Assembly: GCA_964016885.1 (NCBI GenBank)
Contig: OZ024744.1
Span: forward strand, 66,464,001-66,528,000
Direction of reading: 5' to 3'
From: Eledone cirrhosa
Taxonomy: Eukaryota
DNA: 64,000 bases
Below the pieces are notes generated by a model. It searched no databases. It worked only from the letters and a program-made list of their open reading frames with translations, and had not been told where the DNA came from. This document shows positions 26,760 through 58,818 of the stretch, in pieces. Position 1 is the first letter of the stretch. Each line of letters starts with the position of its first letter. Position numbers and translations under genes: made by a program.

Positions 26760-26805
26760 AACTTAATATATATTTAATTAGAAAGTGAACAACAATATAT
26801 AACTA

Positions 26806-26873
26806 CTCCATTACCAAAGGTTTCTGGATCCCAGACAATATTAATATATGTCGCGATCTGTCATCAGACAGAG
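26806..26873 (-). ncRNA. Type-I hammerhead ribozyme motif (GUA)
   Basis: CTCTGT-CTGATGA-ca GATC gc GACA..TGTC tgg GATC ca-GAAA-CC ttt GG-TA-ATGGAG. Confidence 0.7.
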
Positions 26874-27196
26874 ATGTTATAGACAGAAAATATGAAATGA
26901 GATTTAAAATCTATTAACAATTGGAAGTGAGGCTGGAAAAATAATGGGATATATACATAAGAAAAGAAGGGTAAGAAAAATAATATATAAAAATAGATAG
27001 CAATATAGAAAAAGACGTATGTGTGCATACATGTACACACACATACACACATTCAGGTAAATGTAAAATATATATATGTATATATACATACATGTATATA
27101 TATATACACATGTATATTTCCCATTATTTTTCCAGCCTCGCTTCCAATTTTTAATAGATTTTTCAATCTCATTTCATATTTTTTTATCCAAAACAT

Positions 27197-27264
27197 CTCT
27201 GTCTGACGACTGATGCCGACATATATTATTATTGTCTGGGATCCAGAAACCTTTGGTAATGGAG
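27197..27264 (+). ncRNA. Type-I hammerhead ribozyme motif (GUA)
   Basis: CTCTGT-CTGACGA-(imperfect stem II)-GAAA-CC ttt GG-TA-ATGGAG. Confidence 0.62.
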
Positions 27265-27387
27265 TAGTTATATTTTGTGTTGTTCACTTTCTAATTAAAT
27301 AGCTCTGTTCTATACATAAGAGCACTCTCTTTTCCTTTGCTTTTCCTTCGGAATTACCTAACATATATATGTATATAAATATATGTG

Positions 27388-27443
<56 letters not shown>

Positions 27444-27513
27444 TACATACATAGATACATATATATATATATATGTGCGTGTATATGTATATATATATAT
27501 GTACATATGTATA

Positions 27514-27552
<39 letters not shown>

Positions 27553-27557
27553 GTATA

Positions 27558-27589
<32 letters not shown>

Positions 27590-27602
27590 CATATATACAT
27601 AT

Positions 27603-27936
27603 GGAGGCACATGGCTTAGTGGTTAGAGCATTGGCCTTGCAATTGAAAGGTTGTGAGTTCAATTCTCAGACCGGGTGGTGTGTTGTTTCATTGAGCAAGA
27701 CACTTTATTTTACATTGCTCCAGTTTACTCAGCTGTAGAAATGAGATGATAGGGACTGGGGTCCCTATCATTCCACTGCAAAGTGGTCGTGGAGGTGCCA
27801 CGGCAAAAAAGCACCCAGCACTCACTGTAAATTAGGTTGATGTTAGGAAGGGCATCCAGCTGTAGAAATCAAACCAGAATCAGTTCCCATCCCACCCTTG
27901 CAAGCAGGGAATAGCGGACGTAAAATGATGATGATG
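27603..27936 (+). mobile_element. tRNA-derived SINE family 1 with RTE-A tail (full length)
   Basis: Pol III A-box-like tggcttagtgg and B-box-like gagttcaattc, central domain ttgagcaagacacttta, RTE-5'-like module ttaggaagggcatccagc, and a 3' tail nearly identical to the RTE-A end. Confidence 0.88.
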
Positions 27937-28045
27937 CACATATATATATGTAGATATGTATATATGTTCATATGTATATATATATATATAATTGAAAAAG
28001 TGGAGAATAACATGGTCAACAGTACAAAAAAAGGAGATTTATTTA

Positions 28046-28154
28046 CAGTCTAACAATTGTTTCACTGATAGAGTTGTCTAAAAATTGCTAAACACTGAAA
28101 GCAGTGCAACTCAATTTAAAATACATGTTGGCTCCATCATATCTTCAGAAACTG
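28046..28154 (-). ncRNA. Type-I hammerhead ribozyme motif with long stem II (GUU)
   Basis: CAGTTT-CTGAAGA-ta TGATGGAG..~60 nt..CTCTATCA gt-GAAA-CAA TTG-TT-AGACTG; palindromic stem III. Confidence 0.68.
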
Positions 28155-28479
28155 GCAAAAAATATAAATATATGCGTAACCGGCAAGTTTACAAATTCAA
28201 ATTACAACATCAATAATAATATATATAATAAAGATATAGAGAGAAAAAAAAAGGAAGGGAGATAGATATAGTAAAGAGAGAAAGGAAAGGAAGAAGAAAG
28301 AAGAAGAAGGAAAAAGGAGATTTACAAAAAAGGAGATTTATTTACATATCTTTGAAGTAATGAACAGCAAGGAAGGAGTTTAAACATGTTAGGAGAGTTA
28401 TCTCACCCTTGGCACTGGAATGCATACATGTTAGGACGAGTTCTCTCACCTACGGCATTGAAGGGGTCAATTCAACGGA

Positions 28480-28715
28480 TCATAATGTCGTGGGTTAGAT
28501 TCATAGACAAGGTTGTGTGTTGTCTCTTTGAAGAAAGACACTTCATTTCATGTTGTCCCAGTATACTTAGCTGAAAATGAGCACCAACATAACTGGTCTT
28601 TAACCCTATGATGGGCAGGCATCCTGTCCAGGGGGGTACACTTATGTTCTCAGTCGCTTCACATCACAAAAACCAGGATAAACACTGGCCTGATGAGCCA
28701 CCAGACTCAAGACAG
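28480..28715 (+). mobile_element. Old SINE (diverged)
   Basis: gtgttgtctctttgaagaaagacacttcattt..atgggcaggcatcctgtccagggggg..ggcctgatgagccac resembles conserved SINE central domains. Confidence 0.45.
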
Positions 28716-55541: not shown

Positions 55542-56166
55542 GATAGATAGATAGATAGATAGATAGACATATATATATATATATATAATGAGAGAGAGAG
55601 ATAAGTAGAACAAAGTCATTGTAATTCGGTGGATATATGTTCGATAATGATTGAAGAAAATATGGAAGAAAATTATTGTAATTGATTTAAATTAATGTAA
55701 AATGGTCAGAATGACAAGAGGATAAAAGTCAAGGAAAATTGAGAATTCAAGTATCTTTACATAGAATGTAATGGAATTCTCATATTAATTATGTTTTACT
55801 ATAAACCCCATTATTTTTTATGGGTACTATACAAGTAATTTTAGTAATTCCCTCGGGTTCTTCATTACTTCATTAAAATACAGTGTATTTTATCAATAAT
55901 ATGGTAATGTAAAAGTTTTTTTAAGTTTTTACAGATACCATTCGCATAATTTTAAAACAATATCTTTGAAACATTTTTCAAGTCAGACATGACTGTGTAA
56001 TTATGTTACCACATGGTTGAAGGTTTTCGTTTAATGAGTAGGACATTCAGCATTTGTTTTCTACTACAGCCTAATGTCAAACAAATTATGCCTTGAGAGT
56101 GAAATTCAGAAGGCTGAAACAGTGCAGAAGTCCATCACGTTTATGTATGTGTGCATTATATGTATG

Positions 56167-56340
56167 CATCATCATCATTTAATGTCTATTTTCCATACTA
56201 GCATGGGTTAGACAGGTTATCCCATTAGAGGTTTCTGGCTAGATTTCTACAGCTGGATGCCCTTCTTAACATCAACCACATTTACAGTGTGTGCTGGGTG
56301 CTTTTTGTTGTGACGCCTATATGACCACTTTACAGTGTGT
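56167..56340 (-). mobile_element. RTE-related SINE or 3' module fragment
   Basis: (cat)n, ctagcatgggttagac, ctggatgcccttc, ctgggtgcttttt. Confidence 0.7.
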
Positions 56341-56584
56341 GCATATATATGTTTATGTGCCATAACCTAGCAGTTCAACAAAAAGGTTTGATAAAATAAG
56401 TGCATGCATGGTCCTGTAACTCCTGAAAGAGTTGTTGCGGCACTGTATTGACATATGGCATTTCTAGGGCATTTTTAAAATTGGCCGATCCCATCCCTCT
56501 CTATGTCTATATATAGCAGATGCCTTCCAGAGAAGGATAGAGGGAGTGAGAGAAAGGAAGTGAGAAAGAGATATAGAGGAAAAA

Positions 56585-56735
56585 ATCAACCCCTGTACTT
56601 GACTGGTACATTTTTTATTGACCGTGAATGGTTGAAAGGCAAAGTTGACCTTGGCGGGATTTGAACTCAGAGAGTTGAAACGAATACTGCAAGGCATTTT
56701 AGCCGACGTTCTAATGACTTTGCCAATTCGCCGCC
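56585..56735 (-). mobile_element. SINE family 2
   Basis: gaaaggcaaagttgaccttggcgggatttgaactcag..tgccaattcgccgcc. Confidence 0.75.
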
Positions 56736-57772
56736 TAAGATAAAATAAGTACCAGACTTCAAAAAATAAATGTTTTTTTTAAAAATAAATAGTGGGATCA
56801 ATATGTTGAATCTGTTGAAACTGTCTGTAACTGTGGGATCAATAGTGGGATCTGTTGAAACTGTCTGTAACTGGTCACTCATACTGATGTTAAGGTATTG
56901 TTCTCAAAATAAATAGATTCGATATTATGTGAGATAATTATGCGAGGTAAAGCATTTACCATGAAAATATAATAGTATATATAGAGTAATGTGAATACTA
57001 AAGGATTAAGATGGTGCTCCAGCATGGCCACAGTCTAAATGACAGAACCCAGTAAAATAAAAGAATACATGTAGTTAGTTAACCACTGACCTTGTATGAG
57101 TGTGTGTGTTACAACATACCCATTCCCTTCCTTCATCTCCCTTTTTCTTTTCTTTTTCAGTTGACACATCTTACATGTCCCATCGCCCATTATTGAATCG
57201 CACTTCCTCATTATCACTCTTCACTTAATAATCCACCCTCATCCATACCGGTCCTCACCTTCACCCCGACCCAACCCAAGTGACCCTCTTTTCTTTTTAC
57301 AGCTTATCTCCCCCCCCTCCGTTCCTCACTCGCTCCCCTTCCCTCCGCTCCATTCTTTCTTACTATATATCATCCATTCCCTCTATCTCTCTTCTATGAA
57401 ATCTTCTAATCTCTCCTCCTTCTCTTCTTCTTCTTCTTCTTCTCCATCCCTCCTCTCCTCCTCTTCTTCTCCCCCCTTCCCCCTCCTCTTCTTCCACTTC
57501 TTCCTCCCTCCCCCTCCCCCACTCAGTGCATAACAACTTTCTCTTTACTTCACCATCCTCTTTTCCACTTTTCTCCTATTTATTACTTTCGGTTCCTCCC
57601 CCTCCCTATTCACCTCCACTCTTACCTCCACCCAGGTATTATGCAAGCATGTAAAATAGCAATTAAATAATGATGCTGACCATGATATGTATGTGCAAGT
57701 TTGAGTATAAATGTGAGTAGTTGTGAGCACGTGTGTGTGTGTGTGTGTATGTGAGTTTGAGTGTGTCTACAT

Positions 57773-57948
57773 ATCATCATCATCATCATCATTATCATCA
57801 TTTTACGTCCGCTTTTCCCTGCTTGCAAGGGTGGGACGGGAACTGATTCTGGCTTGATTTCTACAGTTGGATGCCCTTCCTAACACCAATCTCATTTACA
57901 GTGAGTGCTGGGTGCTTTTTTCCCGTGGCACCTACACGCCCACTTTGC
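57773..57948 (-). mobile_element. SINE family 1, 3' half
   Basis: Matches 19098-19265. Confidence 0.85.
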
Positions 57949-58023
57949 ATTAATTATATTAAAACTCGCCCTATAGAAATGAGTTGCTCTATACCTTGGA
58001 TGTTTCTACCAAGTTATTACCAC

Positions 58024-58103
<80 letters not shown>

Positions 58104-58289
58104 CATGCACATATATATATATAAAGTAGAAATATAAGCTTACACAGTAAGCCTGATAGTGGGGATTTTTTAAAAACCCTCTGAATGGAAAAGGATGAGT
58201 ATTTCTACTTAATTTCAAATTTCAAACTTCACTTGCTGTCTTCAAAACAAACTTGCTTTGTCATTAAATATATATATATATATATATAG

Positions 58290-58475
58290 AAGGCATGCCA
58301 TATTTTTAATATGGTATCCCTGAAATATGTATAATGAAATAAATATGGTTTTATAAATATAGTTTCCATTTGTTTAATATCGTATATCTACTCCAAAACT
58401 TGTTGAGTGCTTTATATCAGTTATAAAATATTTACTTGTTGTAACCCAACAATTTTAAATAAAACTTTTGCATAT
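58290..58475 (+). mobile_element. 5'-truncated copy of the AUA-hammerhead element
   Basis: Starts within stem II (..ggtatccct-GAAA-tatgt-ATA-atgaaa); tail matches 59600-59745. Confidence 0.6.
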
Positions 58476-58605
58476 ATATATATATATATATATTTATATA
58501 AATGAAGTAATTCCGTCGGAAAGGTCCAGGAAAAAAGAGTGCTCTATGCAGGTTACAGAGCGTATTAGTTATGTAATAAACAACAAAACAACATAAGATA
58601 ATTAT

Positions 58606-58664
58606 TTCACTTACCAGTGGTTTCTTGAAAGCAAACAAAATTTGCTTTCAGTCATCAGAATGAA
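58606..58664 (-). ncRNA. Type-I hammerhead ribozyme motif (GUA)
   Basis: Mirror of 58712-58770. Confidence 0.8.
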
Positions 58665-58711
58665 AAAATCCTGGTGTATTTATTGACAGTCAATAAATAC
58701 ACCAGGATTTT

Positions 58712-58770
58712 TTCATTCTGATGACTGAAAGCAAATTTTGTTTGCTTTCAAGAAACCACTGGTAAGTGAA
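58712..58770 (+). ncRNA. Type-I hammerhead ribozyme motif (GUA)
   Basis: TTCATT-CTGATGA-c TGAAAGCAAA ttttg TTTGCTTTCA a-GAAA-CCA c TGG-TA-AGTGAA. Confidence 0.8.
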
Positions 58771-58818
58771 ATAATTATCTTATGTTGTTTTGTTGTTTAT
58801 TACATAACTATATATATA

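What the first reader, a model, noticed from the sequence alone, without database searches (positions are those of the whole stretch)
26773..58810. Hammerhead elements form head-to-head inverted pairs with invariant polarity
Seen: in four unrelated or distantly related loci (26.8/27.2, 33.9/34.4, 48.8/49.2 and 58.6/58.7 kb) the left arm carries the ribozyme on minus and the right arm on plus. The 5' ends are joined centrally and both 3' ends run outward into (AT)n, usually with one arm having a longer tail. 23765-24112 shows the same polarity asymmetrically. Established: Penelope-like elements often have an inverted partial pLTR. Inference: both strands of a cut in palindromic (AT)n prime cDNA synthesis, or cDNA snaps back, producing self-complementary inserts. 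In read-through RNA the antisense arm would sequester the ribozyme and yield dsRNA.
Basis: partly seen in the sequence, partly recalled or inferred. Interest (0 to 1): 0.85.

Follow-up and report, generated by a model that had tools for sequence, protein, structure and literature searches.

The report
Two-armed inverted Penelope retroelement insertions
These head-to-head hammerhead pairs are insertions of Penelope-like jumping genes into AT repeats, a layout already described, but here one arm almost always ends at a short site and the other at a long site, which likely means that both cut DNA strands each start their own copy from the element's RNA.

Summary
Real, and a known layout. The four pairs are 5'-truncated insertions of Hydra-clade Penelope-like elements (PLEs) in (TA)n. 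Three families link to RT/GIY-YIG ORFs (one intact, 819 aa); the fourth is a 427-nt tandem, retrozyme-like monomer. Among listed genome hits, neighbours within 10 kb were head-to-head 53 times and tail-to-tail once. The layout is in print (Arkhipova 2013, Cervera 2014, Craig 2021), and this scan noted similar pairs in other genomes.

The census adds mechanism. In 86 of 88 scored pairs exactly one arm carries the tail and the other stops at a fixed short end. Eight pairs have a tail-only arm that shares no sequence with its partner, which snap-back (the published self-priming idea) cannot make. Clean joints show 1-4 nt microhomology, arms share source variants, short ends are sometimes re-iterated, and a GCTC motif follows both end sites in three families. 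Best reading: coupled twin priming from both strands of the cut at two RNA start sites (0.7), matching in vitro work on a lizard PLE (Frangieh 2024). The window's own palindrome centres have no read support, and dsRNA and ribozyme activity are untested.

The parts
26771..26948 (-). Family B left arm, short (S) end at 26771; hammerhead core at 26867, stem II decayed
   Evidence: L061
26949..27119 (.). Centre of pair B: upstream, low-complexity parts of both arms; exact joint not resolved
27120..27362 (+). Family B right arm, long (L) end; core at 27203; tail 27302-27362. Same pLTR precedes Hydra-type ORF remnants in L080 and L065
33650..34160 (-). Family C left arm, S end at 33650; core at 33895; partial tandem of a 427-nt monomer; inner edge approximate
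34095..34694 (+). Family C right arm, L end; core at 34395; tail 34639-34694; partial tandem; inner edge approximate
48771..49022 (-). Family D left arm, S end; core CCGAAGA at 48856, predicted cut after 48818
49019..49022 (.). Joint of pair D: self-complementary GTAC shared by both arms, no spacer
49019..49441 (+). Family D right arm, L end; core at 49185; tail of about 165 nt with a 9-nt duplication at the S site. pLTR of a 4189-nt PLE with an intact 819-aa ORF (L161)
58501..58689 (-). Family A left arm, L end; tail 58501-58565; core at 58658
   Evidence: L001
58687..58810 (+). Family A right arm, S end; core at 58718; 122 of 122 nt identical to the left arm. Same pLTR frames Hydra-type ORF remnants in L191 and L192
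23777..23864 (-). Family E tail-only left arm (L end)
   Evidence: last lines
23975..24122 (+). Family E right arm, S end; core at 24013, GAAA box decayed
24139..24415 (.). Further pair with the same layout, no hammerhead in the arms: palindrome 24222-24415, one-sided extension 24139-24221
40549..40760 (.). Further pair of a common family: palindrome 40549-40678 starting at (TA)n, one-sided extension to the right; end approximate
13330..13598 (+). Single family A copy with L end, core at 13448; no partner arm seen; start approximate
59460..59744 (+). Single family E copy with L end, core at 59552

Best explanation
Each pair is one insertion of a Hydra-clade Penelope-like retroelement into (TA)n, with one arm ending at a fixed short site and the other at a fixed long site, and it was likely made by the element's endonuclease cutting both DNA strands and its reverse transcriptase priming one cDNA from each cut end. 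Steps: (1) shown: the arms are pLTR ends of PLEs or of a non-autonomous tandem derivative, head-to-head, one short-ended (S) and one tailed (L). (2) Inferred, with in vitro precedent in another clade: both strands are cut and extended, and synthesis starts inside the RNA at S and L. (3) Inferred: the two starts are coupled, most simply one RNA (or two RNAs of one source locus in an asymmetric complex) with each site used once; where arms overlap, the L-primed enzyme would displace the S cDNA. (4) Inferred: the two cDNAs stop independently and are joined at their 3' ends through 1-4 nt of microhomology, then filled in. Because cDNA always grows from the element's 3' end inward from each target end, tail-to-tail pairs cannot form. 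The hammerhead is a passenger of the pLTR; in any read-through RNA the antisense arm is made first and is predicted to pair with it.
For: Identity: same-strand family-D hits lie 4172-4201 nt apart and frame an 819-aa ORF with Hydra motifs; A and B pLTRs adjoin ORF remnants 29-49% identical to it. One-tailed rule: D 23 of 23, A 40 of 41, B 7 of 8 and C 16 of 16; none with two short ends (A, B, C counted by eye). Tail-only arms with no overlap: D 5, A 3 (L010, L021, L023), plus window 23.8 kb. D 5' ends differ by 132-5105 nt in 21 of 23 pairs. 13 clean D joints overlap by 1-4 nt, mean 2.5 against 0.69 for random joins, 0 of 100,000 resamples as high. Arms are nearer each other than other loci, e.g. 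2 of 3996 nt against at least 0.33%, 0 of 1694 against at least 0.24%; all 19 comparisons lie below the median for other loci; A subfamily variants occur in both arms. D short ends carry 7-9 nt re-iterations in 7 of 29 cases, as repeated priming would give. GCTC follows both S and L in D, A and B; at L it lies outside the inserted part, so the template runs on past the end. Frangieh 2024: a Poseidon protein cuts and extends both strands, starts at two internal RNA sites that bound the tail, and is modelled as a dimer.
Against: No biochemistry on this clade. Two both-tailed pairs (L029, with about 70 nt of flank also inverted; L089). D 5' ends correlate (rho 0.52, p 0.01), partly because I chose long-spaced pairs. 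10 of 23 D joints had 3-21 unassigned letters under exact matching and were left out of the overlap test. Many A pairs, and both near-perfect window pairs, are symmetric at short internal palindromes, where self-priming cannot be excluded copy by copy. In 3 long comparisons (L165, L168, L175) the arms were no closer than the nearest other locus, and arm likeness could come from later gene conversion. Some copies show no partner arm (L161, L105). GCTC is absent from family C. The B sample was found with a tailed query, so it under-samples short-short pairs. End re-iteration could be later slippage next to (TA)n (1 of 31 real L ends shows it; the scan's 32nd row was a false match).
Confidence: 0.7

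Rival explanations
1. Self-priming (snap-back): one nucleic-acid strand folds back at an internal palindrome and copies itself, and the endonuclease then trims one arm at the S site (Arkhipova 2013; tail as endonuclease resolution in Craig 2021).
For: Window pairs A and D are near-perfect palindromes centred on short self-complementary words; many A joints sit at TTTTAAAA; arms share variants, including one found in only 12 of 2632 exact matches; L029 inverts flank as well; S sites are AT-rich like the target.
Against: Tail-only arms share nothing with the partner (8 pairs); 21 of 23 D pairs are asymmetric by more than 130 nt, with the longer arm S in some and L in others; centres with 0-1 unpaired nt cannot be hairpin loops (general knowledge); re-iterated S ends look like priming starts, not cuts.
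Confidence: 0.15
2. Two primings as in the best explanation, but on two separate RNA molecules held by an asymmetric protein dimer, one subunit set to S and the other to L.
For: Both arms can be full length plus an extra pLTR piece (L162/L163), which on one RNA needs over 4 kb of strand displacement; dimer model in Frangieh 2024.
Against: Arms carry the same source variants, so the two RNAs would have to come from one locus; a symmetric dimer gives no reason for S+L. This is a variant of the best explanation, not an alternative to dual priming.
Confidence: 0.08
3. The palindromes are assembly or library artefacts (fold-back reads).
For: Window pairs A and D have identical arms and no spacer; no listed contig or read spans their centres.
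Against: Arms of pairs B and C differ by 6-7% of aligned bases; element ends are exact and asymmetric; flanks are not inverted (except L029); independent runs show head-to-head joints of other D copies (one contig in X1, 2 reads in X24) and 13 X1 contigs leaving the element at the S end into (AT)n.
Confidence: 0.03
4. Two independent insertions into the same (TA)n tract, or a later inverted duplication of a single insertion.
For: Strong shared target preference; L029 and L089 could be such cases.
Against: Independent insertions give both polarities, (TA)n between the arms, free S/L choice and different sources; none is seen. A later duplication cannot create a tail-only arm or stop exactly at S.
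Confidence: 0.04

Closest known systems
Insertion units of endonuclease-positive Penelope-like elements (Arkhipova 2013, PMC3846280; Craig 2021, PMC8557442)
   Same: Partial tandems forming pLTRs, an inverted 5'-truncated copy at the 5' end, head-to-head as the usual arrangement, a tail often at one end only, hammerhead in the pLTR.
   Different: Tails here are 56-162 nt, not 30-40. The papers call the tail optional and propose self-priming or endonuclease resolution; in the passages I read they do not count the one-short-one-long rule or describe tail-only inverted arms.
Hydra clade of PLEs, including Hydra-1_Obim (Craig 2021 section 11 and supplementary file 1)
   Same: C-terminal GIY-YIG, RW(K/R), DKT, CxCX5C linker, no CCHH, CxxC and CxH around the conserved E and N, (TA)n target, type I hammerhead. 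The N-terminus and RT motifs of the A-linked ORF resemble Hydra-1_Obim by eye.
   Different: Family D unit is 4189 nt against 'generally <3 kb'; Hydra-1_Obim is listed without a pLTR; these families were not aligned to the published ones, so they may be new families.
Poseidon element of the green anole in vitro (Frangieh 2024, PMC11167929)
   Same: Both strands cut and extended, AT-rich target, two internal RT start sites bounding the tail, hammerhead not needed for insertion.
   Different: Other clade; the paper found no difference in start site between strands and does not derive the inverted pair from its data (parts 1-2 of 4 read); coupling of S and L within one insertion is not reported there.
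Twin priming of human L1 (as described in PMC12016303; Ostertag and Kazazian 2001 not read)
   Same: Two cDNAs primed from the two target strands give a 5' inversion.
   Different: L1 uses the poly(A) end plus a variable internal site in about 20% of insertions, with overlap of median 12 bp; here both sites are fixed and arms overlap by up to 4 kb.
Metazoan PLE hammerheads and non-LTR retrozymes (Cervera and De la Pena 2014, PMC4209133; Li 2026, 10.64898/2026.07.22.740005)
   Same: Type I motifs with tiny palindromic helix III, pairs 100-700 bp apart on opposite strands; family C is a tandem, ORF-less hammerhead monomer.
   Different: No G10.1-C11.1 pair in the four families; family D has C at core position 4; activity untested.

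Membership tests
EN+ Penelope-like element | Single ORF with RT followed by GIY-YIG endonuclease between direct pLTRs | tested here: met
   Family D: 819-aa ORF in L161, 845 aa in L167; nearest Atlas clusters at 0.96-0.98, some carrying GIY-YIG (31-50% of members) and RVT_1. Pfam scan and PDB search gave nothing. A and B: broken ORFs only. C: none found.
EN+ Penelope-like element | Partial tandem (pLTR) and adjacent inverted 5'-truncated copy | tested here: met
EN+ Penelope-like element | [quoted passage not shown] | tested here: met
   86 of 88 scored pairs; tails longer than the published 30-40 bp.
Hydra clade | RWK motif, DKT in place of DKG | tested here: met
   D: RWR and DKT; A-linked: RWK and DKT; definition.
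Hydra clade | CxCX5C linker, no CCHH, CxxC and CxH beside the conserved E and N | tested here: met
   By inspection of L161 and L191.
Hydra clade | Insertion into (TA)n | tested here: met
   D: 30 of 31 real L ends run straight into (AT)3 or more, 29 of 29 S ends within 30 nt.
Hydra clade | Generally shorter than 3 kb | tested here: not met
   D unit 4189 nt; A unit about 3.4 kb in L191. A tendency in the paper, not a strict criterion.
Hydra clade | Placement in the RT tree with published Hydra proteins | not tested
   Reference proteins were seen only as text in the supplement.
Metazoan PLE type I hammerhead | CUGANGA and GAAA boxes, helix I of 4 or more pairs, short palindromic helix III, NUH | tested here: met
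   A and C exact; D has CCGAAGA; B boxes present, helix II decayed.
Metazoan PLE type I hammerhead | G10.1-C11.1 pair closing helix II | tested here: not met
   C.A, A.G, U.U and C.A face each other next to the core; single motifs do not fold as full hammerheads except C.
Metazoan PLE type I hammerhead | Self-cleavage | not testable with these tools
   Published relatives are weak or protein-assisted.
Non-LTR retrozyme (family C) | Tandem monomers each with a type I hammerhead, no ORF | tested here: met
   L178: 19 boxes spaced 425-431 nt on one strand; no ORF of 120 aa or more.
Non-LTR retrozyme (family C) | Transcription and circular RNA | not tested
L1-type twin priming (works like, not a member) | Second cDNA primed at a variable internal RNA site | tested here: not met
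   Both ends are fixed to within 1-2 nt in 23 of 23 D pairs.

The most novel reading that the evidence does not exclude
Twin priming is the default integration route of Hydra-clade (perhaps all endonuclease-positive) PLEs: one complex reads two GCUC-marked start sites on one RNA, uses each exactly once, one per cut strand, and joins the two cDNAs by microhomology, so that the tail, the inverted pLTR and even apparent single copies (which often hide a partner arm of 7-45 nt) all come from one reaction with no second-strand priming step of the LINE type; the short site also adds telomerase-like repeats.
Probability: 0.45. Interest if true: 0.75.

Novelty: new member of a known kind. Interest (0 to 1): 0.5.

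Why it matters
How PLEs make their tandem and inverted structures is named as an open question in Craig 2021, and PLE RTs are the sister group of telomerase. The layout itself is ordinary for PLEs. What matters is that a young, high-copy family with intact ORFs lets the published self-priming idea be tested against dual priming from genome sequence alone, and the counts favour dual priming with a strict one-short, one-long rule. It gives exact start sites, a candidate RNA signal and a protein to purify. It also means a 3-Gb genome holds very many short head-to-head hairpins (34 hammerhead hits and 5 same-family pairs in 420 kb sampled), a likely but untested source of dsRNA.

Tried and rejected
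Rfam: no hammerhead family among the 150 rows shown; hits were miRNA families matching hairpins and (TA)n, rejected. The repeat finder was swamped by (TA)n. A DNA search of the genome with the 49 kb arm returned nothing, an index effect: an exact pattern then gave 2181 matches. Pfam (best E 0.06), PDB sequence search (0 hits) and single-sequence AlphaFold (pLDDT 32, not used) did not identify the ORF. Sequencing runs: no RNA holder listed; four runs laid on 48776-50100 had no depth on the unique flank 49496-49675 and no listed piece across the centre, so this locus is neither confirmed nor refuted by reads. Post-insertion homogenisation of arms: family A arm-arm 3.2%, tail 6.0% from the majority letter, confounded by subfamilies; inconclusive. 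The 5' junctions of 20 further single-hit D copies were not obtained, so the share of all insertions that have a partner arm is unmeasured. Target-site duplications cannot be read inside (TA)n. Set aside before counting: duplicates L002, L007, L016, L035, L092, L095, L107, the second copy in L195; unclear L052 and L062/L063. [quoted passage not shown]

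
Full report
Observation. The window lies in a 3.0-Gb animal assembly rich in (TA)n (G000:C28). A type I hammerhead scan finds a motif on the minus strand in the left arm and on the plus strand in the right arm for three pairs, with none in 5 shuffles; the 26.8/27.2 kb pair has the boxes but a decayed helix II. I call the families A (58.6 kb), B (26.8 kb), C (33.9 kb) and D (48.8 kb). 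A and B are related; no other likeness was found. The 23.8 kb case (family E) and two more pairs (24.1-24.4 kb, 40.5-40.8 kb) show the same layout.

Polarity. Exact patterns give 2181 (D), 2620 (A), 520 (B) and 56 (C) matches, evenly split between strands. Among the first 100 listed for D, A and B and all 56 for C, opposite-strand neighbours within 10 kb are minus-then-plus in 25, 16, 10 and 2 cases and plus-then-minus in 1. That one is a tandem duplication of a whole pair (L195). In 42 stretches of 10 kb (40 spread over the genome, 2 beside the window) the scan found 34 motifs; all 5 same-family opposite-strand neighbours were head-to-head, and one tail-to-tail neighbour joined two different families.

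What the elements are. Same-strand D hits lie 4172-4201 nt apart and frame a single ORF of 819 aa (L161). It has RWR, DKT, YRDD, a CxCX5C linker, a C-terminal GIY-YIG-like region without CCHH, and CxxC and CxH beside the conserved E and N, the features given for the Hydra clade, which inserts into (TA)n (Craig 2021, section 11). Atlas neighbours include clusters with GIY-YIG and RVT_1; Pfam, PDB and single-sequence folding were blank. A and B pLTRs adjoin broken ORFs of the same type (L191, L192, L080, L065). The supplement lists an octopus member, Hydra-1_Obim, which the A-linked ORF resembles by eye; a cephalopod host is my inference and was not tested. C is an ORF-less 427-nt monomer that also forms tandem arrays (19 units in L178), a retrozyme-like derivative.

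The rule. Every family has two fixed 3' ends, short (S) and long (L), 162 nt apart in D and 56-64 nt in A, B and C. In head-to-head pairs exactly one arm is tailed: D 23 of 23 (15 of the 25 listed pairs, 7 single hits with a partner lacking the pattern, and the window), A 40 of 41 (two short arms stop 8-13 nt before S), B 7 of 8 and C 16 of 16. Two pairs are tailed on both sides (L029, L089), none is short on both; two unclear loci and duplicates were set aside. Free choice would give half mixed (p 3e-23). The B sample is biased toward tailed copies.

Telling mechanisms apart. In 5 D pairs and 3 A pairs the L arm is only tail and shares no sequence with the S arm, so neither arm was copied from the other. 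The two 5' ends differ by more than 130 nt in 21 of 23 D pairs. Thirteen D joints resolve cleanly and overlap by 1-4 nt (mean 2.5, random 0.69); the other 10 have 3-21 unassigned letters, some from nearby substitutions, one a templated piece. Arms match each other better than other loci in the long overlaps (2 of 3996, 5 of 3246, 0 of 1694, 3 of 1504 differences), though not in L165, L168 and L175; A subfamily variants occur in both arms. Seven of 29 D short ends repeat their last 7-9 nt, against 1 of 31 long ends. In D, A and B a GCTC follows both S and L within about 10 nt. Apparent singles L117, L167 and L169 carry 7-14 nt of the other end, inverted, at their 5' joint; L105 and L161 do not (by eye).

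Mechanism. Shown: identity, polarity, S+L pairing, non-overlapping arms, microhomology. Inferred: both strands of (TA)n are cut, each primes a cDNA, one at S and one at L, on RNA from one source; the cDNAs stop independently and anneal. Frangieh 2024 (parts 1-2 of 4 read) showed double-strand cutting and extension and two internal start sites bounding the tail for a Poseidon element. Against: no biochemistry for Hydra; symmetric palindromes, including window pairs A and D, fit self-priming copy by copy; window pair A shares a variant seen in 12 of 2632 matches, which fits one template or later conversion; L029 inverts about 70 nt of flank and looks like a true fold-back.

Reads and RNA. No RNA holder was listed. 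Four runs show family D, its S end running into (AT)n (13 contigs) and head-to-head joints of other copies (1 contig, 2 reads), but not this locus's flank or centre. Folding read-through RNA in either direction pairs the core with the antisense arm in 8 of 8 cases; head-to-head order puts the antisense arm first. This is prediction only.

What is known. Arkhipova 2013 (passages) describes the inverted pLTR with an optional tail, calls head-to-head the most frequent arrangement and proposes self-priming on an antisense template. Cervera and De la Pena 2014 (parts 1-2 of 4) report opposite-strand hammerhead pairs 100-700 bp apart. Craig 2021 (passages, section 11, supplement rows) draws the layout and lists its origin as unresolved. 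Li 2026 (part 1 of 5) links retrozymes to PLE pLTRs. L1 twin priming is taken from passages of PMC12016303. My eight searches found no count of the S+L rule and no twin-priming model for PLEs, but key older papers are outside the library.

Verdict. A real feature and a new set of members of a known kind. Interest 0.5: the layout is old, but the pairing rule makes an open mechanistic question directly testable.

Noticed in passing
run X1, joint window 48817 to 49224: One contig joins two family-D arms that both begin on the first base after the predicted hammerhead cut (48818 on minus, 49223 on plus), with 2 letters between; the L arm of L168 also starts within its 3-nt overlap of that site. 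A hint that cleaved RNA is sometimes the template. My genome queries spanned the cut site and could not test this.
   Followed up: no
L162/L163 (G000:C1:56.97-56.99 Mb): Two full-length D elements head to head, about 9.5 kb, one with an intact ORF and one with a frameshift, 2 differences in 3996 nt; still one long and one short end.
   Followed up: partly
L029:1369-1894: Both arms tailed and about 70 nt of unique flank inverted too: a fold-back type event unlike the rest.
   Followed up: partly
L093, L094, L098, L111, L163, L168, L176 short ends; window 49258-49276: Re-iteration of the last 7-9 nt at the D short end, up to three extra copies, resembling telomerase repeat addition; the window's long arm has one such duplication internally.
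   Followed up: partly
family A loci L182-L208: Many alignments begin at positions 123-130 of the reference copy, the upstream edge of hammerhead helix I; may be real 5' clustering or subfamily divergence upstream.
   Followed up: no
L022:796-1490; L193; L194: Family A pairs with 0.7-4.5 kb of other sequence between the arms (an unrelated inverted repeat in L022).
   Followed up: no
L144:5995-8047: Another hammerhead family with a 311-nt monomer, four units on minus then two on plus, head to head.
   Followed up: no
window 19482-23779: A 4.3-kb (TA)n-based array interrupted by RTE-like LINE fragments.
   Followed up: no
window 41958-45013 and 50105-50594: Minisatellites: 90 copies of a 34-nt unit, and 12 identical copies of a 40-nt unit.
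   Followed up: no
window 6633-9572, 25686-26315, 46150-48201, 54123-55570, 61641-63592: Broken non-LTR retrotransposon ORF pieces (RTE-like and one L1/Tx1-like by recalled motifs); no host exon was looked for.
   Followed up: no
window 15136, 15925, 38909, 39411: Further single hammerhead-like motifs of other families.
   Followed up: no
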